Shown: positions 33,278-52,310, counted from the first letter of the stretch. The stretch is DNA of 64,000 nucleotides from an uncultured Gemmatimonadales bacterium (GCA_963798915.1 CAWCVB010000006.1:256001-320000), one strand, 5' to 3'. Numbers and translations: made by a program. The notes: a model not told the origin generated them from the sequence alone.

Positions 33278-33306
33278 ACGCTAAACACTGTGGCCCGGCT
33301 GGTCAA
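33278..33306 (-). promoter_or_regulatory. Putative sigma70 promoter (near-leaderless)
   Basis: TTGACC-N17-TAGCGT, 9 nt before ATG 33268. Confidence 0.55.
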
Positions 33307-34174
33307 GTTCATCGTCGTCTGGAGGCGCTGGCCAGCCGATATCAAGGGCGGCGCGCCGAGGCCCATCCAGGACCCGGCGGATCCACGAGGCGATGACAAC
33401 CGCCACGGCAACCAGCAACCAGAGGCCGCCCAGCGTCAGCCATCCCAGCACGCCGTAGCGACGGCGCACGTCCCGCTGCCAAGCCACTCCGAACTGGCCC
33501 GGCGTGAGTCCGGTCGTCCGCCGGAGCGCCGTATCGAACGGCTCCCCGGAGGCCAGCAAGGTCAACAATGGCTCCAGCGAGTGCTCCGGGTGACGCCGGG
33601 CCAGGTCCATCACAGCGGTCATGGCCAGTCCATAGGCAAGCGATGCGTCGGCCTCGGTTCCCTGCAGGCCGCGGTTCAGGTTGTCGAGGTCCGGGATGCG
33701 CCCGCGCAGGACGGCGAGGTTGATGCCAACCGCATCCATTCGGCTCCACTCACCAGCCGCGTAGGCGGCGTAGCCTTCGTCGAACCAGCGGGGAACGCTC
33801 GAATGGATGGCGCGGCGCAGCGCCAGGTGCGCCAGCTCGTGTCTCAGCGTGGCTTCCGTCTGGCCCGCGTCGGCGCGGATCAGAATGGTGCGGCTGGATG
33901 GCAGCGCGACACCCGCGCCCCACGACGGTGCACGCCCGCTGGTATAGCGCTGCATGGTCGACTGGTCCGGCACCACGATCAGGCGGATCGGTCCCGGGTC
34001 GCGCCTGCCCAGGCCGGGCCAGGTGTGGACATGATCCGCCTCGTCGCCAAGCTGGAGGGCCAGCGGCATCTCGCGCGCCGTCGCGACCACCGTGACCTGA
34101 CCGACCTGTGCTGCCTGGGGCTGAGGCGGCGCCTGAACGAACGGGCGAAGAGCGATGAGCGCGAGTGCGCTCAG
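33281..34174 (-). CDS. Membrane-anchored gluzincin (peptidase MA-like) metalloprotease; start uncertain (CTG 34174 proposed)
   Basis: HELAH followed by PRWFDEGYA; C-terminal TM; N-terminal hydrophobic stretch starts at a CTGA overlap. Confidence 0.8.
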   Translation of the reverse strand: MSALALIALRPFVQAPPQPQAAQVGQVTVVATAREMPLALQLGDEADHVHTWPGLGRRDPGPIRLIVVPDQSTMQRYTSGRAPSWGAGVALPSSRTILIRADAGQTEATLRHELAHLALRRAIHSSVPRWFDEGYAAYAAGEWSRMDAVGINLAVLRGRIPDLDNLNRGLQGTEADASLAYGLAMTAVMDLARRHPEHSLEPLLTLLASGEPFDTALRRTTGLTPGQFGVAWQRDVRRRYGVLGWLTLGGLWLLVAVAVVIASWIRRVLDGPRRAALDIGWPAPPDDDELDQPGHSV

Positions 34175-35055
34175 GAACGCGCGGAACGCGGGATGGTCCC
34201 TCCGGCAGCGGCGGTGTCCAGCATGTCCTTGCACCGCTTGCCCCACTGATTGAATCGGTTGGCGCGATGGCCCTCGGTCCACGACTCGGTGGCGCCCTCG
34301 CGATCGCCGGAAAGCCACTGCGCGCGTCCCAGCTCGTACCACGCCTCGATCAGGTTGGGTCCCAACTGGAGGGTCTTGCGGAAGAAGGCCTGGGCGTCCT
34401 CGAACATCTCGCGCTCGAGATAGACCAGGCCCAGGTAGTAGTGGGCGTAGAGCGTGGCCTTCCGGTCGTTGTTCAGCCGAATGGCCTTGGAAAGATGTTC
34501 GATGGCTTCGCCGAAGATCCGCTTCTTGAGGCAGATGTACCCGACATTGATCCGGGCCAGCGCATTGGCAGGTTCTGCCATCAGCACCCGCGAGAATGTC
34601 GCCAGCGCCTCGTCATAGCGCTCGTCGAGCATCTCGGCCCAGCCCAGGAGGGACTGCGCCTGCGTGTCACCCGGTGCGAGTTCCAGGGCACGCTCGAGCG
34701 CCTGCACGGCGCCGGCATGGTCCCCCAGCGAAATCAGGCTCCAGCCCTTTTCAATAAACGTCGACGCACCGATATGATCCGAGTGCACCGCGGGCCTGGC
34801 TCCCGAGAACTGCGGTGGTTGTGCCCCATCCTCCGTCGCGCCTGAGGCGACCTGTTTGTAGCGCTCAACCAGCGCGCGGAGGTCGTCCTTCAGCCGGCTG
34901 AGCTCGCCCAGGGCCGCGTCAACCTCTCGGTACAGCGAAATAATGTCGCGCTTGAGGCGCTCGCGAGTGTCCACCCCGCCAGCCTCGCCAAGCCGCGCCT
35001 CCACCTCGCGATAGCGGTCACGATACATCGCGGCCGGGCCAGGTCGATCGGTCAC
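34171..35055 (-). CDS. Coiled-coil plus TPR protein
   Basis: N-terminal heptad helix, then about five TPRs (ALELAPGD, VLMAEPAN, TLQLGPNL). Confidence 0.85.
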   Translation of the reverse strand: MTDRPGPAAMYRDRYREVEARLGEAGGVDTRERLKRDIISLYREVDAALGELSRLKDDLRALVERYKQVASGATEDGAQPPQFSGARPAVHSDHIGASTFIEKGWSLISLGDHAGAVQALERALELAPGDTQAQSLLGWAEMLDERYDEALATFSRVLMAEPANALARINVGYICLKKRIFGEAIEHLSKAIRLNNDRKATLYAHYYLGLVYLEREMFEDAQAFFRKTLQLGPNLIEAWYELGRAQWLSGDREGATESWTEGHRANRFNQWGKRCKDMLDTAAAGGTIPRSARS

Positions 35056-35513
35056 GTTCCGGCCCGCTGCAAGGTGACGCGTTCGTCGCCGCTGAAGAGC
35101 CGACGGGCGTTGAGCAGCACGACGGTCTGCTCTCCGATATGCGCAACCCCGCTGATGTACTCGGCGGCGAGGCCGCGCACCAGCGGCGGCGGCGCCGCAA
35201 TCACTGATGCGTCCACCCGCACGACCTCCCGCACCTGATCGACCACCACGCCAATTCGATCGCGCTCGACTGTGATCACGATGACGCGGGTGTCCTCGCC
35301 CAGCTCCGCCGGTACGTCGAGGCGCTTGCGCAGGTCCACCACCGGAATGACCCCGTCTTCGAAGGGGAGGACACCCTCGAGAAAGGGAGGGGCCTTTGGC
35401 ACGGTCGAGGGCCGCTCGTATCGAAGGATCCGCTCGACCTGCAGGATGTCAAACCCGAAGTCCTGCTCACCGACACGGAAAGTCACCAGTTGCACGTCAT
35501 CGCCGGAGATCAT
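35052..35513 (-). CDS. cheW: Chemotaxis adaptor CheW
   Basis: LVTFRVGEQDFGFDILQVERI, VPKAPPFLEGV, IPVVDLRKRL, IGVVVDQV. Confidence 0.93.
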   Translation of the reverse strand: MISGDDVQLVTFRVGEQDFGFDILQVERILRYERPSTVPKAPPFLEGVLPFEDGVIPVVDLRKRLDVPAELGEDTRVIVITVERDRIGVVVDQVREVVRVDASVIAAPPPLVRGLAAEYISGVAHIGEQTVVLLNARRLFSGDERVTLQRAGT

Positions 35514-35932
35514 AGCCGACCCATTTCAAAGAGGCGCGCGCTCAACGCCGCAAGATCGAGCAGGGGGAGCAATTCCTTGCCATGGCGAACCAACGCCGCC
35601 GCCCACGGTACGGCTCGATCAGGGGGCACGGGTAGCGACTCGCCACGCTGTACGACTTCGGCATCATCGACTTCGAGGCACAGGCGCCTGCCCTCGACAG
35701 TCACCACAATGGCGGTGGAGGCCACGTCGGCAGGACACCGCTGCCCCGCCAGCAATGCCGCCAGATGAACCACGGGCAGGACCGCGCCCCGCATGGTCGC
35801 GACTCCGCGCACCGCCGGCTCGAGGCTGGGGACCGCAGCAACCGCACCCGGCACGGTCACCGCTTCCAGATGCTCCACCGGAAGCCCGATGGCGCGACCG
35901 CCAGCGTGCACCACCAGGAACTGCGTCATCAT
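35510..35932 (-). CDS. cheW: CheW-like adaptor (divergent)
   Basis: [36 protein letters not shown]. Confidence 0.85.
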
Positions 35933-37005
35933 GAAGCCAGGCGGGTGAGACTGGCGTCGAGGACGGCCGCAATCCGCTCCACCGCAAGCACGTAATCCGC
36001 GCCACCGCTCAACCGCGCCGCATTGGGCATGCCATCAATGACAGCGCTGGCCCTGTCCTGCGCAATCCCGATACCGCCCGCGTCATGAATGGCCCGCAAG
36101 CCTGCAGCGCCGTCCCGCCCCAGCCCGGTCAGCACGACGCCAATCGCAGCGGGGCCGAAATACTCCGCCAGCGTGGTGAAGAGCGGATCGGCCGCCGGTC
36201 GCACGCCCCAGACGGTGGGCGACTGATCGAGGGCAATGACCGGACCACCGTCTCCACTGCGCACCAGCATATGGTAGTCGCCCGGCGCCACATACGCCGT
36301 ATCCTCCAGCACCGGGCTTCCCTGCTCGGCTTCGACCACGGTGTAGCGGCTCTGTGTGGCGAGGCGCTCGGCCAGACTGCGCGTGAACTTGGGCGGCATG
36401 TGCTGCACGATCAGGATGGCCGCGTGACGGCCTCGAGTCAGGCGCGGGACGATCTCCGCCAATGCTCGTGGCCCGCCGGTGGAGGCGGCGATGCCCACGG
36501 CACATCGGGCCCGACCGGGCAGGGTGGTCATCGTCGACGGAGGCATCGCCGGTCGTATCGGGCGAGCCAGCATCGGCAGGCGGAGGATCTCAGCTTCGCG
36601 GGCCGCATAGAGGGCCGCAAGCACCCGCCGGCCGAATCGGCCGATGGCCTCCTGGCCTCGGTCCTCGTCCTTCGCGACAAGATCCACTGCACCGAGTTCG
36701 AGCGCTCGAATGGCCGCCGCGGTGCCGGCGCCGGCGTACGCGCTGACGACAACGATGGGCCGGGGCGACTCGGACATGATGTAGCCGATGGCGCCCAATC
36801 CATCGAGTTCCGGCATCTCCAGGTCCATCAGCACGCAGTCGGGTTCGAGGGCATGGACCTTCTCAAGCGCATCCAACCCGTTCCGCGCCGTTCCGCAGAC
36901 CCGGAACGCTTCTGATCCATTGACCACATCGGTCAGCAGCCGCCGAAAAAACGGGCTATCGTCCGCAATGAGGACGCTGGCCGGTTCAGAGTTGCGTGGT
37001 GCCAT
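35929..37005 (-). CDS. cheB: Protein-glutamate methylesterase CheB (REC plus esterase)
   Basis: [37 protein letters not shown]. Confidence 0.96.
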
Positions 37006-37471
37006 GTGACACCGAGGTGATTTCCACCCGGCCATCAGCCGCCCAGACACGCACCGTCCGGCCGTAGTCGCCCCCGACCGCTTCACCGATCAGCGGGATA
37101 CCATGCTGGGCCAGGACCTGGCGCGACGCCACCACGTTCCGTTCCCCCATCTGGATGGTGCCGGGCGCCGTCAATGACGCGAACATGCTCGCACCGCCCA
37201 CCAGGCGACCTCCAACACGCCCGGACCGGGCCCCGAGCGATGCCATCCCGCTGAGCAGCGCCGGCACCGCCTTCTGGGGCACCTTGCCAGGGCGGTCATC
37301 GCTTGGTCGCACGAGCGCCGGCGACGGCAGGAGCACGTGCGCGAGCCCGGCCACGTGGGCCACCGGATCGTACAGGATGATGGCGACACAGCTGCCCAGT
37401 CCGATGGTGACGAGCTCGTCATCGAGTCGGCCCACGCGCAGGTCGGCGACCCGCACCACGATGTCGCTCAT
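36986..37471 (-). CDS. cheD: Chemoreceptor glutamine deamidase CheD
   Basis: [33 protein letters not shown]. Confidence 0.96.
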
Positions 37472-38283
37472 TCCCGCCGCCGGTAGATGCGTTCACGGAT
37501 GTCCACCAGGTCGACCAGCTCACGGGCCGGGCCCAGCAGCGTCTCCACCTTGCCGAGCACCAGGATGCCATGTGGTGCAAGGCGCTCCACGAACAGCGAG
37601 AAGACCTGTTCCTGCAGGGGACGATCGAAGTAGATCACCACGTTCCGGCAAACAATCAGCTGATAGGCGGTGGCCAATGGGGTGGCCCGGCTCAGGTCCA
37701 GCTCTGCTACCGTAACGCGTTCGCGAATGGCAGGAACCACCGCGCGACCTGCCGCGTCAGGCACCGTATACCGATCCTGCAAATCCGCCGGCAGATCCTG
37801 GAACGCCTCCACACGGTAGACGCCCGCCCGCGCGCGCTCCATGGATGCGCGATCGACATCGGTCGCATGAATGGCTGCGCGACTGCTCCACTCCGGCCGG
37901 CCAGCGAGACGGCACTGTTCGGCGAACAGCATTGCCATCGTATACGGTTCATCGCCGGAGGCGCAGCCGGCACTCCACGCCAGCAGTCGCCCGGCATTCG
38001 CCTCCCACAGCGCCGGCAGAAACCGGCCCGCGAGTGCACTCCAGGTCTCGGGATTCCGGTAGAAGCGCGTCACATTGATGGTGAGCGCGTCCTTGAGGCG
38101 ATCCAACTCCTCCGGCTCACGCTCGACCAGCGCCCGATATTCGTCGTAGTCGCGGCTGCCACACGCGCGCATCCGCACCGCCACCCGGCGACGGATGCAC
38201 TTGTCCTTATAGGCATCGAGGGTCATCCCCACGGCTGATGAAACGGACCCAAGCAGCCGGGCGAAGGCCGCGTCGTCGGTCAT
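37468..38283 (-). CDS. cheR: Chemotaxis methyltransferase CheR
   Basis: TINVTRFYRN, WSAGCASGDEPYT, ATDVD, CRNVVIYF, LGKVETL. Confidence 0.96.
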   Translation of the reverse strand: MTDDAAFARLLGSVSSAVGMTLDAYKDKCIRRRVAVRMRACGSRDYDEYRALVEREPEELDRLKDALTINVTRFYRNPETWSALAGRFLPALWEANAGRLLAWSAGCASGDEPYTMAMLFAEQCRLAGRPEWSSRAAIHATDVDRASMERARAGVYRVEAFQDLPADLQDRYTVPDAAGRAVVPAIRERVTVAELDLSRATPLATAYQLIVCRNVVIYFDRPLQEQVFSLFVERLAPHGILVLGKVETLLGPARELVDLVDIRERIYRRRE

Positions 38284-39902
38284 CACGAGGCAGCATCCAG
38301 CATGTCGAGGTTGGCCCGGGCGAGCTGATGCCCCGGATTGAGTTCCGCCGCACGTTGCCAGCAGCTGCGAGCCTGGTCGGTTTCGCGCCGCTTGAAGGCG
38401 ATGTTCCCCAGCTTGAAATAGAGGTCATCGCCGAGCTGGGGATCGAGCTTGGCCGCACGCTCATACATGCTCGCGGCCTCGTCGTAGCGGCCTGAGCGGT
38501 AGCACAAGTCACCCAGGTTCTTGGAAATCTGCGGCACGCCAGGCTCATCGGATAACGCTGCCCGGAGCAGCAGTTCCGCGCCGGCTACATCGCCATCGTG
38601 CTCCAGCATGACGGCGAGGTTGTTGCGCAGGATGGCGCTCGCGGGATGGGTCCGAACCCCTTCCTGGGCCACACTGAGGGCTGCGTCGGCACGATCGGCC
38701 GCGGCTGCAGCAAGCGACTGCGCCCAGTACCAGATCGCCGGCACGATGCCGTCCTTCAGCAACTCACGGGCGCGCGCCAGCCGGCTCTGGGCGGCTTCGG
38801 TGTCGCCGCGCCGCAATGCCAATACGCCCCAGCCCAGCTGGATCCGTGCATCTTCGCGGGCCCGCCCCGCCGCGTCCGCGAACACGCGCTCGGCCTCATC
38901 GAGCTGTCCGAGCTGCTCGAGTGCGATGGCCAGATCATGGAGCACCACCGGCCGGGGGCCGCCCTTCTCCAGGCAGTCGCGGAACGCCTGGGCGGCCTCG
39001 CTCCAGCGCGCCTGCCGCGACGCGATGAGTCCCAGGTGAAAGGGTGCCGCCGCCTCGGCCGGTCGCAGGTCGGCGACGCGCCGAAACTCACGCTCCGCTT
39101 CATCGAGCATTCCGGTCCGAAAGAACGCGACGCCCAGGTTGCGGTGCTCTTCCACCCGCGAGTCACTCGCGCGAGGCGCTGCGGCGGCACGCGACGAACC
39201 GGTGCGATGGGCGAAGCCGGCAGCGAGCAGGCCATAAATGGCCTTGCCGACCTGGAATTCCACCAGGCCGGATTCCTCCATGACCTGCTGCACATCACGG
39301 GTGCCGTCGAGAAGCGGCACGATCCGTTCCTGCTCGGCGCTGAGCGTCACATCGCTGTCGGCCACTCGCGATGGGTCAGCACTGAAGATGAGATCGAAGG
39401 TGGGAATCTTCTTCGCGATGAGACTCCACTCATCCACCCGTCGTGCCCCCTCGAGCAGGAGGCTCTCGGGATTGATGGAGACCAGGACATCCTGTTCCTC
39501 CGGACGCTCACCGGCCTCGAAGTTGAAGGTGCCGCTGCTCCAGGTGAACAGGAAATACACCGCTTCCTCGATTTGCAGCGCCACGAACTCCCGAAGCGCG
39601 TCCGGCGTGATGGCGCCGAGTTCGAGCAGTATCTGGCCAATGCGACGTTCCGGGCTGGCCGCCTGCTGGTCGATGGCTTGCTGCAGCACGTCCGCTGAGA
39701 GCCTGCCGTTGCGGACCAGCAGGTCCCCAAGCCGGTCACGCCGATTGACGATCGAGGCGAAGACGATGCGGCCGTCCTCGAAGTAGATGTAGCCGAAGTT
39801 CTGCCGGTCAGCCACGGCCAGGCAGCCGGAGCGTCGACCCAGCGCGAGCAGCTGGATGACATCCGGAAGACTCGCCTCGGACAGGCTTCCCTTGATGGCC
39901 AT
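38283..39902 (-). CDS. DUF4388 (PATAN-like) protein with MshEN-like motifs, wHTH-like segment and TPRs
   Basis: KGSLSEASLPDVIQLL...SGCL...IYFEDGRIVFA, tandem RLG/RIG 24-mers, WSSGTFNF, LLLEGARRVDEW, then TPRs. Confidence 0.85.
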   Translation of the reverse strand: MAIKGSLSEASLPDVIQLLALGRRSGCLAVADRQNFGYIYFEDGRIVFASIVNRRDRLGDLLVRNGRLSADVLQQAIDQQAASPERRIGQILLELGAITPDALREFVALQIEEAVYFLFTWSSGTFNFEAGERPEEQDVLVSINPESLLLEGARRVDEWSLIAKKIPTFDLIFSADPSRVADSDVTLSAEQERIVPLLDGTRDVQQVMEESGLVEFQVGKAIYGLLAAGFAHRTGSSRAAAAPRASDSRVEEHRNLGVAFFRTGMLDEAEREFRRVADLRPAEAAAPFHLGLIASRQARWSEAAQAFRDCLEKGGPRPVVLHDLAIALEQLGQLDEAERVFADAAGRAREDARIQLGWGVLALRRGDTEAAQSRLARARELLKDGIVPAIWYWAQSLAAAAADRADAALSVAQEGVRTHPASAILRNNLAVMLEHDGDVAGAELLLRAALSDEPGVPQISKNLGDLCYRSGRYDEAASMYERAAKLDPQLGDDLYFKLGNIAFKRRETDQARSCWQRAAELNPGHQLARANLDMLDAAS

Positions 39903-43285: not shown

Positions 43286-44142
43286 GGCAATCGCTCCAGC
43301 CATCGACGCGCGGCTGCGGCTGCCCGTTCGGCGATGACCGCGAGCCGTCCGGCGGGCACGCTGGCATCGCGCTTCAGCAGCAGGACAGTCGAGTCCGATG
43401 GGGCGCTGAGATGAAGATTGCCGCTCCCGCATTCGGCCACGACGCTCTGCCACGCCCCGAGGCCCAGCAGCCGGGCGGTGCGCGCCGCCTCACGCTGCAC
43501 CCCTGCCAGATGCGCGGCCACCGCATCGCTCACGTCATGATTGGCGACGTCCCGAAGCCCGCCGCCCAGCCGCAGACCGCTCTGGTCCAGCAGGAGCAGT
43601 CCGTCCTGTGCACCGTCGAAGCCCTTGAAGAGCTCGTCCTCCGCGACGTGGCCGGCCGTCGGGGAATCGTCCTCCTCCAGTGAGAAGGGCACCGACGCCT
43701 GTTGGGTGGCCACCGTCGGCGTGCTGGCACCCGCCTCTTTCTGCGCCATGGCATCGCGCACCCGCTCGATGGCGCGGTCGAGTCCGGCCGACCCATGCTG
43801 CTCATGCGCCAGCTCCAGGTGCCGCAGCGCCCTCGGCAGATCATCGGCCCGGAAATACAGGAAGCCGAGTCCCTTGTGGGCGCCGAGATGCCCGGGATCG
43901 CTCTGCAAGGCATCCATCCATGCGTCGAACGCCGCTTCGCCATTGCCCAGATCGCTGTGGATGCGCGCAAGCAGGTCGTGCGCATCGGCCAGTGCTGGAT
44001 AGCGCTGGACACCCGCCACGGCCACCTTGAGCGCTGCAGCCGCCTGGCCGCGACGCCGGAGAGCCTCGCCCAATTCGAGGAAGATCAGGCTGCCGGGATC
44101 GGACGCCAGTTCGGCAGTCATGGCCCGCACTTCGTCAGCCAT
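43282..44142 (-). CDS. TPR-roadblock fusion protein
   Basis: DPGSLIFLELGEALRRRG TPRs, acidic linker, then roadblock-like GLLLLDQSGL...VAAHLAG...PAGRL. Confidence 0.8.
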   Translation of the reverse strand: MADEVRAMTAELASDPGSLIFLELGEALRRRGQAAAALKVAVAGVQRYPALADAHDLLARIHSDLGNGEAAFDAWMDALQSDPGHLGAHKGLGFLYFRADDLPRALRHLELAHEQHGSAGLDRAIERVRDAMAQKEAGASTPTVATQQASVPFSLEEDDSPTAGHVAEDELFKGFDGAQDGLLLLDQSGLRLGGGLRDVANHDVSDAVAAHLAGVQREAARTARLLGLGAWQSVVAECGSGNLHLSAPSDSTVLLLKRDASVPAGRLAVIAERAAAAARRWLERLP

Positions 44143-45289: not shown

Positions 45290-47975
45290 GGTCAGCGCCT
45301 CCCGCGGTCAGGATATGCTGGAGGTCACGGGCGGATCGCGCCCGGCTCCGCGCAATCGTGGCCAGCTCGGTGGAGGGCCCGAGCTGCACCACGCGCTCCC
45401 ACGCATCCACCGCAGCCGTGAACTGTCGTTCCCGCGCCAACGCGACGCCGCGATAGAAGAGCGCCTCCGTTTGCTCGGGCAGGAAACGAAGGATGCGGGC
45501 AAACGCCTCCAGCCCTTGAGCCGTCCGGCCATCATCGAGGAGGGCCCGCCCCAGCAGCAGCAATGCGTCAAATTCGTAGGGGTCCGCCGAGAGCATGTCG
45601 ACCAGCAGGGCCACGGCGGCCCTGGGCGATTCGGTGCGCCGCGCGAGGTCGGCCCGCCCCAGGGCCGCAACGGTGAACGTTGGCAGCAGATCCAATGCGC
45701 GGCCATAGGCGGCGTTCGCTGCCGTCCAGTTCTCGCGCTGCTCTTCCAAACGGGCCAGCTCCAGCCATACCTGCACCAGTCCCGCATCGACACGGAGGGC
45801 TAACCGGCATGCGTCGAGCGCAGCATCCACGTCACCCAGCTGAGAGCAGATGACAGCCTGCAGCTGGTAGAGTTCCGGTTGACCAGGCGAGACCGCCAGC
45901 GCACTGCGAACGGCCTGCAACGCGCCCTCGAGGTCGTCGCCCGCGAGCCGGGCCTTGCCGAGGGCCGTGAGCACTTCCCCGTCGTCGGCTCGGGCACGCG
46001 CGAGCGACTCCGCAACCGGAATCGCCTCTGCGCCGCGTCCGAGCGCCACCAGCGCACGGACCTCACCCAGCGTTGCGCGCCAATCGTCCAGCCGGACCGA
46101 GCGTGCCTGGCGAAACTGCTCCAGTGCTTCGCCGTGGAGGCCCCGGCGCGCATGGATTTCACCCAGCAAGGCGGCCACGGCGCCGGCGTCGGCGCCTCGA
46201 GCGCGGGCGCGGCCCACCTCGGCATTGGCCAACTCGAGCAATCCCTTGGTCGCGTAGTCCCGCGCCAAGGCAAGTGGATCCTCCTCGGCCGCCAGCTCGG
46301 GTTCGTACGGGACGGTGGTCGTCAATTCGGCGAACAGGTTATCCAGGGTGCCCGACTCGAAATCGAACTCGCCCGCGAGCAATTCCCCACCCACATCGCT
46401 GGTGAGTGGGGGCGCAATGGCAATCGTCGGGTCTTCGTACTGGAGGTCGAGCGCCAGCGTGTACTTCTGGGGGACATAGAACGGCTCCAGCTCGAGCGCG
46501 CGCTTGGTCTCGCGCAGCGCACCGTCGAAATCCCCAAGCTGGCTCATCGTAAAGCTCAGGTTGTAGTGCGCTGACGCCAGCGAATCCTCAGCTTCCACCG
46601 CACGTTGAAACGCCGTGCGGGCTTCGCCATACCGCTTCAGTTCCATCAGGACCAGTCCGACGCCATTCCATGCGATGGCGTTGCGCGGCTCCTCGGCCAG
46701 GGCCGAGCGATAACCTTCCAAGGCGGGCTGCAACTCATGCCGCTGGAAGTGGAGCAATGCCAGATTGAGCCGCACCGTAATGGGAACGTGCGGGCCCCGT
46801 GCGGCGCGCCGGAAGGTTGCGAGCGTCGCCTCCGCGGCCGGATCCTGAGCACGCAGCACGCCGAGATTGTTCCACGCGATCACATAGTCGGGATCGAGGT
46901 CGACGGCACGAAGATACGAAGCCTCAGCGACGTCGCGGTGGCCCAGCTGCTGCAGGCAGACGCCACGCTCGGACCACAGCTTGGGTGACTCGGGAAACTC
47001 GTTCACGAGCTGGTCGTAGAGCTGCAGCGCCGCTGCGAGTTCTCGCCGAAGCAGCTCCACCTCGGCCATGGCCTGCAAGGCGAGGCGCCGATCCTCGCCG
47101 GCATCCAGCGCCAGCCGGTACTCGCGCAGGGCCTCGCTGAAATAGCCCTTCTGGCGAAAGGCCAGGCCGAGATTGAAGTGCGCCAGCGCGGCGTCGGTCA
47201 CCGGTTGCGGCACCGCGCGCGCCTGGCCGCCCGCGCCGTTTCCGCTCGCCCCGTTGCGCTGCAACATGAGGTTGGTCTGCGCGCGCGCCAGCGCCGGATT
47301 CAATTCAATGGCCCGCTTGGCCGCCTGCCGCGCCAGGCCATGCTGGCCCATGTCGCCGTGGACGAAGGCGAGCAGGTAGTGCGCGTCAGCATACTCCGGA
47401 TTCCGGGCCACGGCGCCCTGGAGGGCAGCCAGGGCCGGCTCGTTCAATCCGCGGTTGTAAAGCGTCTCGCCGTAATAGAACAGGGCCACCGAACTGTCGG
47501 GATCGCGGCGACACGCCTCGGCGAACCATTCGGTGGCCTCCTCGACCCGACCCCGCGCCCGCTCGCTGAGCCCCAGTTGCACCAGCACGGCCACATCGTG
47601 CGGGTGCCGCGCGAGCAGCGCCTGAAACTCGTCGGCAGCAGCATCATGCTGGCCCAGCGAGGCGTAGGCGCGGCCGAGCTCCCAGCGCGCGTCTCGCTCG
47701 TCTGGATTGTTCCGGAGGCGACCCTGCAGTTCGGCGACCCGATGGTCGTAATGGCCACTGTCGCGATAGGCAATTTCGAGATTGGTCTGCGCGATGGTCA
47801 TGCGCGAGTCCAGCTCGAGCGCCCGCTGGAAGGCCGCCACCGCTTCGGGAATCAGTCCTTTGTGGTAGTAGAGCACGCCGAGGTTGTTGTGCGCCCCGGC
47901 ATCGGCGGGATCGATGCGCCGCGCGAACGACCGCAGTGCCGACAGGTCGTGTTCGGACAGTACGGGCGCAGGCAT
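45279..47975 (-). CDS. Large cytoplasmic multi-TPR protein (898 aa)
   Basis: Many canonical TPRs (AHNNLGVLY, AHFNLGLAF, AWNNLGVL, AWNGVGLVL, AHYNLSF); no signal peptide or catalytic domain seen. Confidence 0.9.
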   Translation of the reverse strand: MPAPVLSEHDLSALRSFARRIDPADAGAHNNLGVLYYHKGLIPEAVAAFQRALELDSRMTIAQTNLEIAYRDSGHYDHRVAELQGRLRNNPDERDARWELGRAYASLGQHDAAADEFQALLARHPHDVAVLVQLGLSERARGRVEEATEWFAEACRRDPDSSVALFYYGETLYNRGLNEPALAALQGAVARNPEYADAHYLLAFVHGDMGQHGLARQAAKRAIELNPALARAQTNLMLQRNGASGNGAGGQARAVPQPVTDAALAHFNLGLAFRQKGYFSEALREYRLALDAGEDRRLALQAMAEVELLRRELAAALQLYDQLVNEFPESPKLWSERGVCLQQLGHRDVAEASYLRAVDLDPDYVIAWNNLGVLRAQDPAAEATLATFRRAARGPHVPITVRLNLALLHFQRHELQPALEGYRSALAEEPRNAIAWNGVGLVLMELKRYGEARTAFQRAVEAEDSLASAHYNLSFTMSQLGDFDGALRETKRALELEPFYVPQKYTLALDLQYEDPTIAIAPPLTSDVGGELLAGEFDFESGTLDNLFAELTTTVPYEPELAAEEDPLALARDYATKGLLELANAEVGRARARGADAGAVAALLGEIHARRGLHGEALEQFRQARSVRLDDWRATLGEVRALVALGRGAEAIPVAESLARARADDGEVLTALGKARLAGDDLEGALQAVRSALAVSPGQPELYQLQAVICSQLGDVDAALDACRLALRVDAGLVQVWLELARLEEQRENWTAANAAYGRALDLLPTFTVAALGRADLARRTESPRAAVALLVDMLSADPYEFDALLLLGRALLDDGRTAQGLEAFARILRFLPEQTEALFYRGVALARERQFTAAVDAWERVVQLGPSTELATIARSRARSARDLQHILTAGGADHAN

Positions 47976-47984: not shown

Positions 47985-48605
47985 CTACGGCAGGCGGATA
48001 GCGTCGAAAATGGCGCGGAGCGAAGGCATGTCCGGCAGGAGGAGGAAGTGCCCGTTGAGGCGCTCGCGCTCCTTCCCGACCTGGAAGGAGGTTTCGACGC
48101 AGAAGACGAACTCGCGTTCCTGGCCAAAATTCAGATAGGTGCTGGTGATGACCGCGGCGCTCTGGTCCACCACCAGGCCCGGCACCGACGGGACCAGCAT
48201 CATGCCCATGAAGTCACTCAGCGCATTCAGGTAGGCGCTGACCAGGATGTTGCCAACCTCCTTGAGGCCGCTCTGCTCCATTTCATGGAATTTGGTGGTG
48301 GCGCCTTCCGCACGGTTGAACAGGATGTCACACAAGCGGCGCGCGGCGTCGTCCGGAAACAGGATGAGCGTCCGGCCCGTGAGGTCACCCATCATCTGCA
48401 TCAGCACGGCGGCCACCACGGCATCGGGAGCGCCGAGCAGGTCGGCCACCTCCTCGAGGGGCCGAACGTTGACCTCCGGTACGCTGATCATGATCGTGCG
48501 GTTGGTCATCTGCGAGAGCGCCGTCGCGGCGTGACCCGCCCCGATGTTGGCAACCTCGCGCAGCGCATCCAGCTGCAGATCCTTGAGCCCGCGGGCGTCT
48601 TCCAT
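47985..48605 (-). CDS. cheC: CheY-P phosphatase CheC
   Basis: DALREVANIGAGHAATALS and SGLKEVGNIL (two ExxN sites). Confidence 0.95.
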   Translation of the reverse strand: MEDARGLKDLQLDALREVANIGAGHAATALSQMTNRTIMISVPEVNVRPLEEVADLLGAPDAVVAAVLMQMMGDLTGRTLILFPDDAARRLCDILFNRAEGATTKFHEMEQSGLKEVGNILVSAYLNALSDFMGMMLVPSVPGLVVDQSAAVITSTYLNFGQEREFVFCVETSFQVGKERERLNGHFLLLPDMPSLRAIFDAIRLP

Positions 48606-48617
48606 GCGGTCCTCGAG

Positions 48618-50459
48618 TCAGACGATCGCAGCGGCGTCGAGAATCAGCGCCGGCGACCCATCTGCCAGAATGGTGGCCCCTCCGAAGAACGTCGGCATCC
48701 CGCGGGGTGCCTCGAAGGGTTCGACAACGATGTCCTGCTGGCCCAGCAGGCGGTCCACGATCAAGGCGGCCCGCCGGTCCCCGACTTCGAGGATGATGCC
48801 CGGCCGCCGTCCGGGCGCCTCACCGCCGACGCGCACCAGCTCGCGGAGATGCACGGTCGGGATGGCGCGGTCGCGCACCACCAGTGCCTGGCGATCGCGC
48901 ACTGCGGTGACGCTCTTCAGGTCGAAATCAACCGTCTCGGCCACATAGGCGATCGGCACCGCATAGCGCTCGTCGCCGACACCGGCGAGCAGCGCACGGA
49001 CAATGGCGAGCGTCAGCGGAACGCGGAGCGCGAAAGTGACACCCGCCCCCTCGCGGGCGCTCACCGAGAGAGTACCACCCAAGGAACGCGCCCGCGTTGC
49101 GGCCACATCCACGCCGACGCCGCGACCTGAGACTCCGCTCACGGCGCCGGCCGTGCTGAACCCAGGCCGGGCAAGCACGCGCAGCAGCAGGTCGTCACTG
49201 AGTTCCTGGACCGCGGAGTCGATCACGCCGTCACGCTTGCCGCGCTGCAACATGGCATCCCGCTCGATGCCCCGGCCATCGTCCATCACCCGGATCACCA
49301 CCGTATTCCGCTCCCGGGCGGCGCTCACCACCACCCGGCCCTCGGCCGGCTTGCCCCGTGCCACTCGTTCGGCCGGCGACTCGAGACCATGGTCCACCGC
49401 ATTCCGGATCAGGTGCAGCAGCGGATCGCCGATTTCGTCGAGCACCGCACGATCCAGCTCTATGCCGCCGCCCTCGCTCTCGAAGCGCGCCTGCTTGCCG
49501 AGATCGCGCGCCAGGTCCCGGACCACCCGGGGAAATCGATCGAAGACCTCGGAGACCGGGCTCATGCGCGCCTGCAACACCTCGGCCTGCAGCTCACCCA
49601 CGAGCCGCGAGACCCGGTCGGCGACTGCCGCCAGTGGCATGTCGTCGCGCCCGGCAGCCAGATCGGCCAGGCGATTGCGGGCCACGACAAGCTCGCCGAC
49701 CTGCTTCATGAGCGCATCGAGGCGGCCGAGGTCGATCCGGATCTGGCGAGGCACCGCCGCCGCTCCAGCCGAGCCGTCGGCCAAACCGTTGCCGACCCGC
49801 ACCTCACTGATATCACCCGCACTCCGGATAGCGGCCTCGACCACGCTCAGATCGGCTCCGCCCCCAATCCGGAACGAGAAGTGGCCGTCGAAGTCGTCCC
49901 GCTCAAAGGCGGCAATACCGGGCCGGATGTCCGACACCGCACCCAGTGCCTCGGCCCGCCGCAGCGCCAGCATCGCCCGCCCACCGCGCAGCGGTGCATC
50001 AGGTCGGACGGCAACGAATACGCGTTGCGAAACAGGCTCCGTCGAGGCGCGCTCGGCAGGGGCGACCTCGCGCCACGCCGCCTGCGCCGCTCGATCCAGG
50101 GCGGCGGCGAGCTCGGCGTCATCGGCGCCGCTGCTCTCGCCACCGGCGCCAGCGCGGCCGACCGCCGCGGTAATGCCATCAACGGCCCCGAACAGAAGCT
50201 GAATGAGGGCCGGTGTAACCGCCACTCGGCCACCGCGGACGGCGTCCAACAGGTTCTCGGTGCGATGGGCCAGTCCTGACACACCCTCGTACCCCATGGT
50301 CGCCGCCATGCCCTTGATCGTGTGGATGGCGCGAAAAAGGCCAGCCACGGGTTCCACGGCTGCCGGATCGCGCTCCCATTCAAGCAGGTACTGATTGCAG
50401 GAGGTGAGATGCTCGCGACTCTCGGCAAGGAAGAGTGCCGCGTACTTGGACAGGTCCAT
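48618..50459 (-). CDS. cheA: Chemotaxis histidine kinase CheA (P1-P2-P3-P4-P5)
   Basis: FRAIHTIKGMAATMG, LLHLIRNAVDHG, DDGRGI, PGFST, SGRGVGVD, PLTLAI, GATILADG; ATG 50459. Confidence 0.97.
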   Translation of the reverse strand: MDLSKYAALFLAESREHLTSCNQYLLEWERDPAAVEPVAGLFRAIHTIKGMAATMGYEGVSGLAHRTENLLDAVRGGRVAVTPALIQLLFGAVDGITAAVGRAGAGGESSGADDAELAAALDRAAQAAWREVAPAERASTEPVSQRVFVAVRPDAPLRGGRAMLALRRAEALGAVSDIRPGIAAFERDDFDGHFSFRIGGGADLSVVEAAIRSAGDISEVRVGNGLADGSAGAAAVPRQIRIDLGRLDALMKQVGELVVARNRLADLAAGRDDMPLAAVADRVSRLVGELQAEVLQARMSPVSEVFDRFPRVVRDLARDLGKQARFESEGGGIELDRAVLDEIGDPLLHLIRNAVDHGLESPAERVARGKPAEGRVVVSAARERNTVVIRVMDDGRGIERDAMLQRGKRDGVIDSAVQELSDDLLLRVLARPGFSTAGAVSGVSGRGVGVDVAATRARSLGGTLSVSAREGAGVTFALRVPLTLAIVRALLAGVGDERYAVPIAYVAETVDFDLKSVTAVRDRQALVVRDRAIPTVHLRELVRVGGEAPGRRPGIILEVGDRRAALIVDRLLGQQDIVVEPFEAPRGMPTFFGGATILADGSPALILDAAAIV

Positions 50460-50463
50460 GGCG

Positions 50464-50826
50464 TCAGCCGAGGACGCGCTGTACGGCCTCGAGGACGCGG
50501 GACGGTTGAAATGGCTTGACCACAAAATCCTTGGCGCCGGCCTGGATCGCCTCCACCACGAGCGCCTGCTGCCCCATGGCGCTGCACATCAGGATCTTGG
50601 CGTCGGGGTCAACCTTGCAGATGGCCCGCACCGCGTCAATTCCACCCATGTCCGGCATGACGATATCCATCGTGACCAGGTCCGGCTTGAGCTGATGGTA
50701 CTTGTCCACCGCCTGCACGCCGCTCTCGGCTTCGCCGACAACCTCGAAGCCCGCCTGGGTCAGGATGTCGCTGATCATGGTACGCATGAAGATGGCATCA
50801 TCGCAGACCAGCACAGTATGACCCAC
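50464..50826 (-). CDS. cheY: Response regulator CheY (Bacillus/Thermotoga-like)
   Basis: VCDDAIFMR, MDIVMP, CSAMGQQALV, FVVKPF. Confidence 0.95.
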   Translation of the reverse strand: MGHTVLVCDDAIFMRTMISDILTQAGFEVVGEAESGVQAVDKYHQLKPDLVTMDIVMPDMGGIDAVRAICKVDPDAKILMCSAMGQQALVVEAIQAGAKDFVVKPFQPSRVLEAVQRVLG

Positions 50827-50857
50827 GCACCACCTCCGTAACGGTCAGATATCTGCG

Positions 50858-51313
50858 TCAGCTCGACGCCACGCGCTCGGATGACAGGACCGGACCGCAC
50901 AGCGCGTCCAGATCAAGAATGACGAAGTGCTCGCCTTCATGCCGCGCGACGGCCCGGACCATCACTGGATCGACGCCTGGCAACTGTTCTCGTGCGGCGA
51001 CTGACGACTCCGGGAGGGAAAAGAAGTCTCGCACCTCACCAACCTCGAGCCCGATCAGTCGCCCCACGACCTGCACGACCAGGATGGCGCCCTCGTCGCC
51101 CTCGCCACGGGGCTGCTGCAGCAACCGGTGCGCGTCCAGCACGGTCAGCAGGCCTCCCCGTACATTGACGAGGCCCGAAACCGCTGATGCCACCCCCGGG
51201 ATCCTCGTTGCCTGAAGGCTCGGGAGGATCTCCCGCACAATCCCTGCCGAGGCCCCGCAAATCAGGGTCCCGACTCGAAACACGACGGCGTGCAATACCG
51301 GAGAGTCAGGCAT
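50858..51313 (-). CDS. cheW: Chemotaxis adaptor CheW
   Basis: VREIL, TRIPGV...GLVNVRGGLLTVLD, IGLEVGEV, ILDL; ATG 51313 overlaps the rluD end. Confidence 0.9.
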   Translation of the reverse strand: MPDSPVLHAVVFRVGTLICGASAGIVREILPSLQATRIPGVASAVSGLVNVRGGLLTVLDAHRLLQQPRGEGDEGAILVVQVVGRLIGLEVGEVRDFFSLPESSVAAREQLPGVDPVMVRAVARHEGEHFVILDLDALCGPVLSSERVASS

Positions 51314-52310
51314 CTCTATTGAAGAACCGAAGATACCGAAGCGGCGCATCCTGAGCAACAAGTTCTGTGTCAGCTGCGAGCCTCAGGGCCGGCATCAGGT
51401 CCGCGGGCCAATCCGCCTGTAGTACGAGCGGTTTACCGCTGGCCGGATGGCGAAATGCCAGAGCGGCCGCATGCAGCGCCTGACGTGGCGTGGCCCGTTC
51501 GATCCGTTCTGCGAGCGGCCGCGCCGCCCCGCTGATCCTCCGGCTCCCCCCTGCCCCGTAGGTGGCATCGCCGACGACCGGATGCCCAATGTGTTCCAGA
51601 TGCACACGAATCTGGTGAGTCCGGCCCGTCTCGAGGTCGATCCGGAGCAGTTCGCAGACCTCGAAGCGACCGATCACCTGAATTTCCGATGCTGCTGCGC
51701 GGCCGTGGGGCGAGACCGCCATTCGCTTCCGGTCAGCCAGTGCCCGGGCGATCGGCTGCTCGATGCGCACGGGCGACTGGGGCAGGTGGCCCCACGCGAG
51801 CGCAGCGTAGGTGCGATGCACCTGTCGCGCAGCAATGGCGCGACTGAGTCGGCGGTGTGACTCGTCAGTTTTTGCGACGATCATGAGCCCGGATGTATCG
51901 CGGTCGAGCCGATGGACGATGCCCGGCCGTCCGGCCGCGCCGCCCGCCAGGGTCAGGCCTCGGGCCACCAGAGCGTTGACCAGCGTGTCATCCCAATGCC
52001 CTGGGGCCGGATGCACCACGAGGCCGGCGGGCTTATTGACCACCGCGAGTGCCTCATCCTCGTATACGATATCGAGTGGAATGTCGGCCGGCGTGAGCCG
52101 GCGCGGCGGCTCAGCATCAGGAAGATCGAGTTCGACGAGATCGCGCCGCTCGAGCACGCGCGACGCGCGCACGGTGGCTCCGTTGACCCGAACCCGCTGC
52201 CCGGCGAGCAGCCGGGCGACCTGGGTTCGGGAAAGCTGCAGCTGGTCGGCCAGGAAGCGGTCGATGCGCTCCGTCACCTCGACCAGAACGCAGAGACCGA
52301 TGGCCGGCAC
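51306..52310 (-). CDS. rluD: 23S rRNA pseudouridine synthase RluD family
   Basis: S4 domain RIDRFLA, VNKPAGLVVHP, HRLDRDTSG, TGRTHQIRVH, QALHA. Confidence 0.93.
   Translation of the reverse strand: MPAIGLCVLVEVTERIDRFLADQLQLSRTQVARLLAGQRVRVNGATVRASRVLERRDLVELDLPDAEPPRRLTPADIPLDIVYEDEALAVVNKPAGLVVHPAPGHWDDTLVNALVARGLTLAGGAAGRPGIVHRLDRDTSGLMIVAKTDESHRRLSRAIAARQVHRTYAALAWGHLPQSPVRIEQPIARALADRKRMAVSPHGRAAASEIQVIGRFEVCELLRIDLETGRTHQIRVHLEHIGHPVVGDATYGAGGSRRISGAARPLAERIERATPRQALHAAALAFRHPASGKPLVLQADWPADLMPALRLAADTELVAQDAPLRYLRFFNRDA
51330..51358 (-). promoter_or_regulatory. Putative sigma70 promoter of the che/mgl operon, inside the rluD 3' end
   Basis: TTGCTC-N17-TATCTT, 16 nt before cheW ATG 51313. 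Confidence 0.5.

What the first reader, a model, noticed from the sequence alone, without database searches (positions are those of the whole stretch)
33281..51358. Candidate undescribed polarity/signalling system: chemosensory operon with an embedded MglAB GTPase, MshEN-TPR and tandem DnaA-like AAA+ module
Seen: 19 co-oriented genes, mostly joined by ATGA/GTGA/TGATG or short overlaps (largest gap 31 nt), with a candidate promoter at the 5' end. Order: cheW-cheY-cheA-cheC, 898-aa TPR, DUF4388/TPR, TPR-roadblock, roadblock, mglB, mglA, double DnaA-AAA+, DUF4388/TPR, cheR-cheD-cheB-cheW-cheW, coiled-coil/TPR, HExxH peptidase. Known: in Myxococcus xanthus the Frz chemosensory pathway switches MglA/MglB polarity, and TPR proteins (SgmX; Bd2492 in Bdellovibrio) partner MglA, but frz and mgl are separate loci. 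Inference: one unit in which a CheC/CheD-type pathway and c-di-GMP feed a GTPase switch with an AAA+ component, controlling pole identity, surface motility or the cell cycle. It sits between housekeeping blocks with no integrase or transposase, so it looks ancestral. I know of no description of this architecture but could not search.
Basis: partly seen in the sequence, partly recalled or inferred. Interest (0 to 1): 0.92.

Follow-up and report, generated by a model that had tools for sequence, protein, structure and literature searches.

The report
Chemotaxis operon enclosing MglA polarity switch
A Gemmatimonadales bacterium carries one tightly packed, conserved gene string in which a complete chemotaxis-type signalling set encloses a Ras-like polarity switch (MglA/MglB), several adaptor proteins and an unusual double DnaA-like ATPase, a layout for which I found no published description.

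Summary
The 19 genes are real, lie on the minus strand (51313 to 33281) and have the stated order and domains. The GTPase is a true MglA orthologue (E 6e-70 to M. xanthus MglA) beside MglB. The "double DnaA" has two DnaA domain-III AAA+ modules and no DNA-binding domain. It defines a roughly 650-aa family seen almost only in Gemmatimonadota.

Gene order is colinear in 16 of 16 related loci, all metagenome-assembled genomes (MAGs), as far as the contigs reach. Four of them hold all 19 genes.

Not confirmed: a 5' promoter. cheW overlaps the stop of rluD, and no sigma-70-like site was found. Only weakly supported: c-di-GMP input.

Caveats: tight overlaps and conserved synteny also hold for the housekeeping flanks, no receptor gene lies in the window, and the che set is F1-like, the flagellar type.

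Best reading (about 0.45): a Che pathway coupled to an MglA/MglB pole switch. This is a new variant of a known kind (Frz-MglA, the actinobacterial conservon) with a new AAA+ component.

The parts
50858..51313 (-). cheW1 (151 aa). The start overlaps the rluD stop; alternative starts lie at 51349 and 51361.
   Evidence: Pfam CheW 1.4e-19; sequence at the junction.
50464..50826 (-). cheY, a single-domain response regulator (120 aa).
   Evidence: Pfam Response_reg 1.2e-30. Best NCBIfam model is CheY_Halo, 5e-38, below its cut-off. It is the most conserved gene of the block, with a median of 92% identity in the far relatives.
48618..50459 (-). cheA (613 aa; P1-P2-P3-P4-P5, no receiver domain).
   Evidence: Pfam Hpt, P2, H-kinase_dim, HATPase_c and CheW. 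NCBIfam CheA_Halo 5e-124, below its cut-off.
47985..48605 (-). cheC, a CheY-P phosphatase (206 aa).
   Evidence: Pfam CheC 1.2e-21. NCBIfam CheC_Thtogales 1e-51, below its cut-off.
45279..47975 (-). 898-aa all-TPR protein, a candidate MglA effector or scaffold.
   Evidence: Pfam TPR_2 1.9e-65 and many other TPR models. Conserved in 7 loci. The analogy to SgmX comes from PMC11580455.
44135..45289 (-). PATAN (DUF4388) + TPR protein 1 (384 aa).
   Evidence: Pfam DUF4388 7.9e-32 (residues 4-163) and TPR_16 6.6e-11. One relaxed MshEN-like motif at residue 89.
43282..44142 (-). TPR + C-terminal Roadblock-like fusion (286 aa).
   Evidence: Robl_LC7 5.4e-4, below the cut-off, in the window copy. 9 of 10 orthologues match it, best 1.2e-7. 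hhalign against the neighbouring Roadblock profile is weak (E 0.071).
42938..43303 (-). Stand-alone Roadblock/LC7 protein (121 aa).
   Evidence: Pfam Robl_LC7 2.5e-9. PDB 7f8m Robl_LC7 protein 1.6e-7.
42477..42938 (-). mglB (153 aa), a Roadblock-type GAP homologue.
   Evidence: PDB MglB 6h5b_B 2.5e-10 and 1j3w 1.3e-7. NCBIfam MglB model 3.8e-10, below its cut-off.
41872..42474 (-). mglA (200 aa), a Ras-like GTPase.
   Evidence: PDB M. xanthus MglA 5ymx_A 5.7e-70 over 1-197, and T. thermophilus MglA 3t12_A 2.7e-67. The P-loop, the DRTLFFDF stretch and TVPGQ are invariant in 13 orthologues.
39902..41875 (-). Tandem DnaA-domain-III AAA+ protein (657 aa): module 1 about residues 5-235, a conserved linker about 263-378, module 2 about 379-600, a variable stretch, then a conserved C-terminal tail.
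   Evidence: Pfam Bac_DnaA, 2 stretches, with no DnaA_N or Bac_DnaA_C. PDB DnaA 8btg 1.1e-50 (residues 5-260) and 2z4r 4.2e-36 (379-595). The two halves are 36% identical to each other.
38283..39902 (-). PATAN (DUF4388) + TPR protein 2 (539 aa).
   Evidence: Pfam DUF4388 3.1e-38 (residues 4-160) and TPRs at 250-530. MshEN-like repeats at residues 57 and 87.
37468..38286 (-). cheR (272 aa, no TPR domain).
   Evidence: Pfam CheR 2.7e-44 and CheR_N 2.6e-9.
36986..37471 (-). cheD (161 aa).
   Evidence: Pfam CheD 1e-21. NCBIfam CheD models to 2e-33, below their cut-offs.
35929..37005 (-). cheB (358 aa, REC + methylesterase).
   Evidence: Pfam CheB_methylest 5.6e-60 and Response_reg 1.4e-21.
35510..35932 (-). 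cheW2 (140 aa).
   Evidence: Pfam CheW 2.4e-18.
35052..35513 (-). cheW3 (153 aa).
   Evidence: Pfam CheW 5.9e-32. NCBIfam CheW 1.3e-22, below its cut-off.
34171..35055 (-). 294-aa TPR protein.
   Evidence: Pfam TPR_2 1e-25. Present in 6 loci.
33281..34105 (-). Peptidase_MA_2 (HExxH) protein. The start is uncertain (34105 to 34342). It is probably exported and has a C-terminal hydrophobic helix, so its membership of the signalling unit is doubtful.
   Evidence: Pfam Peptidase_MA_2 9.8e-12. A hydrophobic N-terminal stretch is conserved upstream of 34105 in orthologues.

Best explanation
The block is one vertically inherited, probably co-transcribed unit of Gemmatimonadales. It has three layers.

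(a) A full CheA/CheW/CheY/CheC/CheD/CheR/CheB chemosensory core, whose receptors are encoded elsewhere.

(b) An MglA/MglB Ras-like GTPase/GAP switch with two extra Roadblock proteins and four TPR or PATAN-TPR adaptors.

(c) A lineage-specific ATPase made of two DnaA-type AAA+ modules without DNA-binding domains.

Proposed working, all inferred: receptor arrays set CheA activity. CheY~P, reset by CheC and adapted through CheR/CheB/CheD, acts on the PATAN-TPR or TPR-Roadblock adaptors. These bias MglB GAP activity or MglA-GTP localisation, so that MglA-GTP with the 898-aa TPR protein marks one pole for a polar machine, by analogy with Frz to MglA to SgmX to type IV pili in Myxococcus. The tandem AAA+ protein is translationally coupled to mglA and carries a conserved C-terminal docking-like tail. 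It would add an ATP-dependent assembly or reset step.

Shown here: gene identities, order, conservation and motif integrity. Inferred: every protein-protein link and the output.
For: - All domains and the order are confirmed.
- MglA orthology: E 5.7e-70, full length. MglB.
- The 8-gene insert sits between the two halves of a single che set (W-Y-A-C ... R-D-B-W-W). The che-to-insert junctions are as tight as the internal ones and are conserved: cheC to TPR898 is -4 to +11 nt in 7 of 7 loci, PATAN2 to cheR is -4 in 8 of 8, and mglA to the AAA+ gene is -4 in 10 of 10.
- Order is colinear in 16 of 16 related loci, with AAA+ identity down to 53% and CheW1 down to 36%.
- CheY and MglA are the two most constrained genes, with medians of 92% and 79% in far relatives where most others are 40-60%.
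- Both AAA+ modules keep Walker A, Walker B, the box VII arginines and the sensor II arginine across 110 family members.
- Published parallels: MglA binds the 14-TPR protein SgmX, and PATAN proteins co-occur with SgmX (PMC11580455, passages). mglA and mglB lie near PATAN genes (PMC4316618, passages). PATAN-REC regulators in cyanobacterial che operons contact the pilus motor (bioRxiv 10.1101/2021.06.11.447907, passages).
- PADLOC gave only two marginal hits (about 1e-6) to AAA and TPR segments among 10 proteins, with no defence-system match.
Against:
- The che set is CheC/CheD-type, with best models from Halobacteria and Thermotogales. That composition marks the flagellar F1 class (PMC10746217). 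CheY is single-domain and CheR lacks a TPR, unlike Frz-type or ACF systems (PMC3447774).
- No chemoreceptor, pilus, gliding or flagellar gene is in the 64-kb window.
- The rluD and TPR591/rsmH flanks are just as syntenic, and housekeeping neighbours overlap just as tightly. Conserved order and overlaps therefore do not single out this block.
- 15 of the 16 relatives carry Gemmatimonad* labels, 10 of them Gemmatimonadales, so they sample one phylum and largely one order.
- The co-varying distances (r 0.96-0.98) are what any genes in the same genomes would show.
Confidence: 0.45

Rival explanations
1. Two independent systems share a transcript. On this reading an ordinary F1-type flagellar chemotaxis pathway and a separate MglA/MglB polarity module, with its adaptors and AAA+ protein, are merely interleaved in a long, densely packed gene string. 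They stay together through general synteny conservation in this order, with no signalling between them.
For: - F1-like composition, with CheC and CheD, which PMC10746217 links to flagellar control.
- A single-domain CheY and a plain CheR.
- The string continues without a gap from rluD, and unrelated housekeeping genes also overlap by 4 nt.
- The flanks are equally syntenic.
Against: - The insert splits one che set into two halves, neither of which is a working pathway alone. That arrangement has survived to about 50% protein identity in 16 of 16 loci.
- PATAN and TPR proteins are recurrent companions of both che clusters and MglA in other phyla.
Confidence: 0.3
2. A cell-cycle or division-site module. 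On this reading the tandem DnaA-like ATPase acts on the replication initiator DnaA, Hda-like, through AAA+ to AAA+ contact, or otherwise reports replication state. MglA/MglB and the adaptors give pole identity. Together they place division planes or the polar spherical appendages typical of the phylum. The che genes supply an environmental input or are bystanders.
For: - Both modules are DnaA domain III, with intact nucleotide and arginine-finger motifs. The C-half also matches Hda models (TIGR03420 9.8e-50, below its cut-off; PDB Hda 4e-6).
- The block lies directly upstream of the dcw division cluster on the same strand, and this is conserved in 3 loci that reach far enough.
- Gemmatimonadota make unexplained polar appendages and divide symmetrically or asymmetrically (PMC11271474, abstract and passages).
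Against: - There is no evidence of contact with DnaA, and no DNA-binding or clamp-binding feature was tested.
- Adjacency to the dcw cluster is interrupted by two tRNA genes and a TPR gene.
- In the systems described in the papers read here, MglA acts on motility, polarity or predation rather than on replication.
Confidence: 0.12

Closest known systems
Myxococcus xanthus Frz chemosensory system acting on the MglA/MglB polarity module (with RomR/RomX, MglC, and SgmX as TPR effector)
   Same: A Che-type pathway plus an MglA orthologue (E 5.7e-70), MglB, extra Roadblock paralogues, a large TPR protein and PATAN proteins. In Myxococcus, MglA recruits the 14-TPR protein SgmX, and PATAN proteins co-occur with it (PMC11580455).
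   Different: In Myxococcus the frz and mgl genes are at separate loci (PMC4316618). Here they form one string. The che set here is CheC/CheD-type with a plain CheA, a single-domain CheY and a plain CheR. There is no FrzE-like CheA-REC and no FrzF-like CheR-TPR. No RomR-like gene was seen in the window. The tandem DnaA-like ATPase has no counterpart in the Myxococcus module as described in the papers read here.
Actinobacterial conservon (CvnA histidine kinase, CvnB Roadblock, CvnC, CvnD MglA-like GTPase)
   Same: A phosphorelay kinase, a Roadblock protein and an MglA-family GTPase are encoded together in one conserved operon (PMC4316618, passages).
   Different: The conservon has four genes, a membrane sensor kinase rather than a CheA/receptor array, and a Group 2 GTPase. 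It has no PATAN, TPR or AAA+ components.
Cyanobacterial Tax/Pix chemotaxis-like operons with PatA-type (PATAN-REC) regulators
   Same: PATAN (DUF4388) proteins are encoded inside che-type operons. They are proposed to position the type IV pilus motor (bioRxiv 10.1101/2021.06.11.447907).
   Different: Here PATAN is fused to TPR repeats rather than to a receiver domain. The receiver is a separate CheY, and MglA/MglB and an AAA+ protein are present.
DnaA / Hda family AAA+ proteins
   Same: Both halves match DnaA domain III (PDB 8btg 1.1e-50 and 2z4r 4.2e-36), with Walker A, Walker B, box VII and sensor II conserved.
   Different: There are two modules in one chain, with no domain I and no domain IV. 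The family has its own linker and C-terminal tail, and its gene context is mglA and PATAN rather than the replication origin. It still scores above the NCBIfam DnaA equivalog cut-off (441.6 against 343.9 bits), and sources name relatives 'chromosomal replication initiator'. That annotation is probably wrong.

Membership tests
MglA family small GTPase (Group 1 type) | Full-length similarity to experimentally characterised MglA proteins. | tested here: met
   5ymx_A 5.7e-70 over residues 1-197, and 3t12_A 2.7e-67.
MglA family small GTPase (Group 1 type) | P-loop, the switch-1 arginine in DRTLFFDF and the catalytic glutamine in PGQ. The residue roles are recalled, not taken from a call. | tested here: met
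   Identical to M. xanthus MglA in the printed alignment and invariant in 13 orthologues.
MglA family small GTPase (Group 1 type) | A cognate Roadblock-type MglB encoded beside it. | tested here: met
   The adjacent gene matches MglB structures at 2.5e-10. The gap is 2 nt.
Frz-type chemosensory system | A CheA-receiver fusion (FrzE), a CheR-TPR fusion (FrzF), a dual-receiver FrzZ and a cytoplasmic receptor FrzCD. FrzF is described in PMC3447774; the other three are recalled. | tested here: not met
   CheA has no REC domain, CheR has no TPR, there is only one single-domain CheY, and no receptor is present.
F1 chemosensory class (Wuichet and Zhulin scheme) | Presence of the auxiliary proteins CheC and CheD. 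| tested here: met
   Pfam CheC 1.2e-21 and CheD 1e-21. The defining statement is in PMC10746217.
F1 chemosensory class (Wuichet and Zhulin scheme) | Class-specific profile assignment of CheA/CheW/CheB/CheR, and cognate 44H receptors. | not testable with these tools
   The class models are not in the libraries, and no receptor gene lies in the window. Only indirect support: the best NCBIfam models are halobacterial and Thermotogales ones.
DnaA (replication initiator) | AAA+ domain III. | tested here: met
   Two copies.
DnaA (replication initiator) | C-terminal DNA-binding domain IV and N-terminal domain I. | tested here: not met
   No Bac_DnaA_C or DnaA_N match at E <= 0.01. The PDB alignments cover only domain III.
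Hda (regulatory inactivator of DnaA) | A single short AAA+ module (the Hda chains matched in the PDB are 225 and 242 aa) with a clamp-binding N-terminus. The clamp-binding feature is recalled. | tested here: not met
   The protein is 657 aa and tandem. The Hda model scores 169 bits against a cut-off of 194.8. The clamp motif was not examined.
PatA-type response regulator | A PATAN (DUF4388) domain followed by a receiver domain. | tested here: not met
   DUF4388 is present (7.9e-32 and 3.1e-38) but is followed by TPR repeats, not REC.
MshEN c-di-GMP receptor | [quoted passage not shown] | tested here: inconclusive
   There are 0 strict matches and 1 relaxed match in each PATAN protein. PATAN2 has a second near-match, and the spacer is 6 residues. 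Repeat 1 of PATAN1 starts with Pro in 7 of 7 sequences. In PATAN2 the turn Gly is replaced in one or both repeats in 7 of 11 sequences.

The most novel reading that the evidence does not exclude
A phylum-specific pole-identity machine in which a dimer-in-one-chain DnaA-like AAA+ ATPase couples ATP or replication state to the MglA/MglB GTPase switch under chemosensory control. Three Roadblock proteins would regulate both NTPases. The ATPase's conserved C-terminal tail (...EKMVWxWPDxxDRxIEEW-COOH) would dock on one of the operon's TPR proteins. The output would be the choice of pole for pili, for the enigmatic polar spherical appendages, or for asymmetric division in Gemmatimonadota.
Probability: 0.12. 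Interest if true: 0.85.

Novelty: new variant of a known kind. Interest (0 to 1): 0.6.

Why it matters
In Myxococcus, the link between a chemosensory pathway and the MglA polarity switch was worked out genetically between unlinked loci. Here the two are written into one conserved gene string in a barely studied phylum. That gives an independent, genome-encoded parts list of candidate connectors (PATAN-TPR, TPR-Roadblock, a large TPR protein). It also names a new player, a tandem DnaA-type ATPase that sources label as the replication initiator, probably wrongly. If the parts do work together, this is a compact system for asking how phosphorelay output is converted into a GTPase polarity decision. 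It may also bear on the unexplained polar appendages and asymmetric divisions of Gemmatimonadota.

Tried and rejected
- Defence island: PADLOC gave only two marginal hits (about 1e-6) to AAA and TPR segments among 10 proteins. Rejected.
- Mobile or recently acquired island: GC is uniform at 0.645-0.696, the flanks are housekeeping genes and no integrase was seen. Rejected.
- 5' promoter and terminators: 0 promoter-like sites, and 8 terminator-like sites against 8.5 expected. Uninformative.
- The Roadblock domain of the TPR fusion compared with the neighbouring Roadblock profile by hhalign: E 0.071. Weak, so I relied on Pfam hits in 9 of 10 orthologues instead.
- ESM Atlas on the AAA+ linker (residues 236-380): no usable hit.
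- PDB sequence search with PATAN2: TPR matches only, nothing for the PATAN domain.
- Complex prediction of MglA with the tandem ATPase never entered the queue, and the tool was finally declared unavailable. No verdict.
- Supplementary Table S2 of PMC4316618, which lists the gene neighbourhoods of all mglA genes including a Gemmatimonadetes genome, could not be searched. The PATAN paper (PubMed 16543275) is not held. Either could mention this neighbourhood.
- The single genome-contig scan used six exact peptide patterns. It returned 16 true relatives, all MAGs, plus 36 ordinary DnaA loci that I dropped. Cultured Gemmatimonadota and other phyla were therefore not really sampled.
- One literature search was badly built and returned nothing relevant.

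Full report
**What is there**

The finding lies on the minus strand. Nineteen open reading frames run from 51313 down to 33281.

- CheW, then CheY.
- CheA, with Hpt, P2, dimerisation, HATPase and CheW-like domains.
- CheC.
- An 898-aa TPR protein.
- DUF4388+TPR.
- TPR with a C-terminal Roadblock-like domain.
- A 121-aa Roadblock protein.
- A 153-aa Roadblock protein.
- A 200-aa small GTPase.
- A 657-aa protein with two Bac_DnaA stretches (E 1.2e-91).
- A second DUF4388+TPR protein.
- CheR, CheD, CheB, CheW, CheW.
- A 294-aa TPR protein.
- A Peptidase_MA_2 protein.

The Roadblock call in the TPR fusion is sub-threshold in the window copy (20.1 bits against a cut-off of 23). It is met by 9 of 10 orthologues, best E 1.2e-7. 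A profile-profile comparison with the neighbouring Roadblock protein was weak (E 0.071).

**Identity of the key parts**

The GTPase is a genuine MglA. It aligns end to end with M. xanthus MglA (5ymx_A, E 5.7e-70) and T. thermophilus MglA (3t12_A, 2.7e-67). The P-loop, the DRTLFFDF stretch and the PGQ stretch are identical and invariant in 13 orthologues.

The gene before it matches MglB structures (6h5b_B, 2.5e-10).

DUF4388 is the PATAN domain (bioRxiv 10.1101/2021.06.11.447907, passages).

The che genes find their best NCBIfam models among halobacterial CheA and CheY and Thermotogales CheC and CheD, all below the cut-offs. Having both CheC and CheD is the hallmark of the F1 class, which directs flagella and has no fixed gene order (PMC10746217, passages). 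I could not run the formal class assignment.

No chemoreceptor gene, and no pilus, gliding or flagellar gene, was found among the window ORFs scanned.

**The tandem ATPase**

Residues 5-260 match DnaA domain III of PDB 8btg (1.1e-50), and residues 379-595 match that of 2z4r (4.2e-36). The Hda matches are weak (4e-6). There is no DnaA_N or Bac_DnaA_C hit. The two halves are 36% identical to each other (E 1e-33).

In an alignment of 110 family members:
- Both halves keep Walker A (GxGKT) and Walker B (DD).
- Both keep the paired box VII arginines (R154/R158 and R529/R533) and the sensor II arginine (R207, R578). The motif names and roles are from my recall of DnaA work.
- The C-half has lost the SDRPP stretch.

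Between the modules lies a family-specific linker (DEFxDFL, WRxR, RWEGEGxRTxRLExLL, FRDPD). After a variable stretch the chain ends in a conserved tail...EKMVWxWPDxxDRxIEEW. The ESM Atlas found no look-alike for the linker outside Bac_DnaA clusters.

Full-length, colinear members of about 650 aa extend down to 32-35% identity.

The family appears centred on Gemmatimonadota:
- 8 of 9 organism-bearing source names are Gemmatimonad*, and one is 'Bacillota bacterium'.
- 5 of 5 organism-bearing names are Gemmatimonad*.
- The six Atlas rows for clusters of 593-663 aa are all 'commonest Gemmatimonadota'.

The protein exceeds the NCBIfam DnaA equivalog cut-off (441.6 against 343.9 bits), and sources call relatives 'chromosomal replication initiator'. 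That is probably a mis-annotation.

**Conservation**

It returned 52 loci. Sixteen (L001-L016) encode the tandem protein at 53-76% identity. I dropped the other 36, which are ordinary single-module DnaA genes of unrelated taxa. Fifteen of the 16 record titles are Gemmatimonad*, and one is 'Limnocylindria'.

I ran tblastn with 24 window proteins against these loci:
- Order and orientation are colinear in 16 of 16 loci as far as each contig reaches.
- All 19 genes are present in L006, L007, L013 and L015.
- rluD lies upstream in L006, L013 and L015.
- The 591-aa TPR gene lies downstream in L005, L007 and L015, with rsmH after it in L005 and L007.

Junction lengths are conserved too:
- mglA to the ATPase: -4 nt in 10 of 10 loci.
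- ATPase to PATAN2: -1 or 0 in 8 of 8.
- PATAN2 to cheR: -4 in 8 of 8.
- cheC to TPR898: -4 to +11 in 7 of 7.

CheY (median 92%) and MglA (79%) are by far the most constrained genes in the distant relatives. CheW1 (39%), CheW2 (40%) and the peptidase (43%) are the least.

Distance matrices of the 5' che genes, the insert and the 3' che genes co-vary (r 0.96-0.98 over six taxa). That fits co-inheritance, but it is also expected for any genes in the same genomes.

**Boundaries and transcription**

- 5' end. The cheW1 ATG at 51313 overlaps the rluD stop (ATGCCTGA). rluD, lspA, a dksA-like gene and ileS continue upstream on the same strand. The sigma-70 scan found no site in 32600-52500 (0 against 1.5 expected), and terminator-like sites were at the chance level. 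The claimed 5' promoter is therefore not supported, and the block is not delimited at its 5' end.
- 3' end. A 379-nt gap holds tRNA-Val (32932-33007). The 591-aa TPR gene follows, then tRNA-Asp, then the dcw cluster from rsmH to ftsZ.
- Packing. Four-base overlaps are common among unrelated housekeeping genes in this window (ftsH/folP, ileS/dksA-like, murE/murF). Overlaps alone therefore do not argue for a shared function. What does argue for one unit is that the eight-gene insert splits a single che set into two incomplete halves, and that this arrangement is retained.
- The peptidase. Orthologues share a hydrophobic, signal-peptide-like stretch upstream of my start at 34105. The protein is probably exported, and it may not belong to the cytoplasmic system.

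**c-di-GMP**

The published MshEN motif is two 24-residue repeats joined by a 5-residue spacer (PMC5013675, abstract and passages).

- The two PATAN proteins give no strict match. Each gives one relaxed match. PATAN2 has a second near-match, and the spacer is 6 residues.
- Repeat 1 of PATAN1 begins with Pro in 7 of 7 sequences. In PATAN2 the turn glycine is replaced in one or both repeats in 7 of 11 sequences.
- Nucleotide input is therefore a lead, not a result.

**Literature**

PMC4316618 (passages) states the following:
- In the studied organisms, mglA is not near its signalling partners.
- Group 1 and Group 5 mglA genes lie only 'occasionally' near PATAN genes.
- Gemmatimonadetes have a Group 1 MglA.
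- The actinobacterial conservon joins a kinase, a Roadblock protein and an MglA-like GTPase in one operon.

Its neighbourhood table could not be searched.

PMC11580455 (passages) shows that MglA recruits the 14-TPR protein SgmX, and that PATAN proteins co-occur with SgmX. PMC3447774 (passages) links TPR domains to non-flagellar che clusters. PMC11271474 (abstract and passages) describes polar appendages and asymmetric fission in the phylum, and contains no occurrence of the search terms motil-, chemotaxis, pili or DnaA.

Searches found no paper describing a che operon that encloses mglAB and a DnaA-like ATPase.

**Interpretation**

The best-supported reading (about 0.45) is a chemosensory pathway coupled to an MglA/MglB pole switch through PATAN-TPR, TPR and Roadblock adaptors. 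A lineage-specific tandem AAA+ protein, translationally coupled to mglA, would be an added component.

The main rival (about 0.3) is simple co-location of a flagellar F1 pathway and an independent polarity module. A cell-cycle or division role for the DnaA-like protein gets about 0.12.

No interaction was tested.

The case is a new variant of a known kind: Che-controlled or kinase-linked MglA-type switches, with a new protein family inside.

Noticed in passing
window 32932-33007 (-) and 30995-31070 (-): tRNA-Val and tRNA-Asp genes bracket the 591-aa TPR gene (31126-32901). This gene sits between the operon and the dcw cluster, where mraZ is usually expected, and no mraZ was seen.
   Followed up: partly
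window 15638-30949 (-): A complete dcw division and cell-wall cluster (rsmH, a short ftsL-sized ORF, ftsI, murE, murF, mraY, murD, ftsW, murG, murC, ftsQ, ftsA, ftsZ) lies directly downstream on the same strand.
   Followed up: partly
window 39902-41875 (-): The tandem ATPase scores above the NCBIfam DnaA equivalog cut-off (441.6 against 343.9 bits), and sources name relatives 'chromosomal replication initiator protein DnaA'. It lacks DnaA domains I and IV, so the annotation is probably wrong across the whole family.
   Followed up: yes
window 39902-40030 (-), the C-terminus of the tandem ATPase: A conserved extreme C-terminal tail (...EKMVWxWPDxxDRxIEEW) follows a variable Gly/Ser/Arg-rich stretch in 18 family members printed, down to 30% identity. 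It looks like a docking peptide, and five TPR proteins are encoded in the same string.
   Followed up: partly
L003 (whole locus); P0071: A contig labelled Candidatus Limnocylindria carries this locus at 74-95% protein identity to the window. One family member is labelled 'Bacillota bacterium'. Both look like binning errors rather than transfer.
   Followed up: no
L009:6607-8208, L010:5708-7042, L013:6604-7944: In three related loci the PATAN1 reading frame runs 200-461 nt past the homologous stop, into the TPR-Roadblock gene. This could be a real C-terminal extension or an assembly error.
   Followed up: no
window 33281-34342 (-): The start of the peptidase is uncertain. Orthologues share a hydrophobic signal-peptide-like segment upstream of the GTG at 34105, and the protein ends in a hydrophobic helix, so it is probably extracytoplasmic.
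   Followed up: partly
window 57156-59543 (-): A 795-aa protein with a TMEM260-like O-mannosyltransferase domain (1.5e-41) lies between folP and yggS.
   Followed up: no
window 12480-14279 (-), 1510-2841 (-), 7526-9605 (-): Several sizeable ORFs (599, 443, 252, 158 and 190 aa) have no Pfam or NCBIfam match. I did not check whether they are real genes.
   Followed up: no
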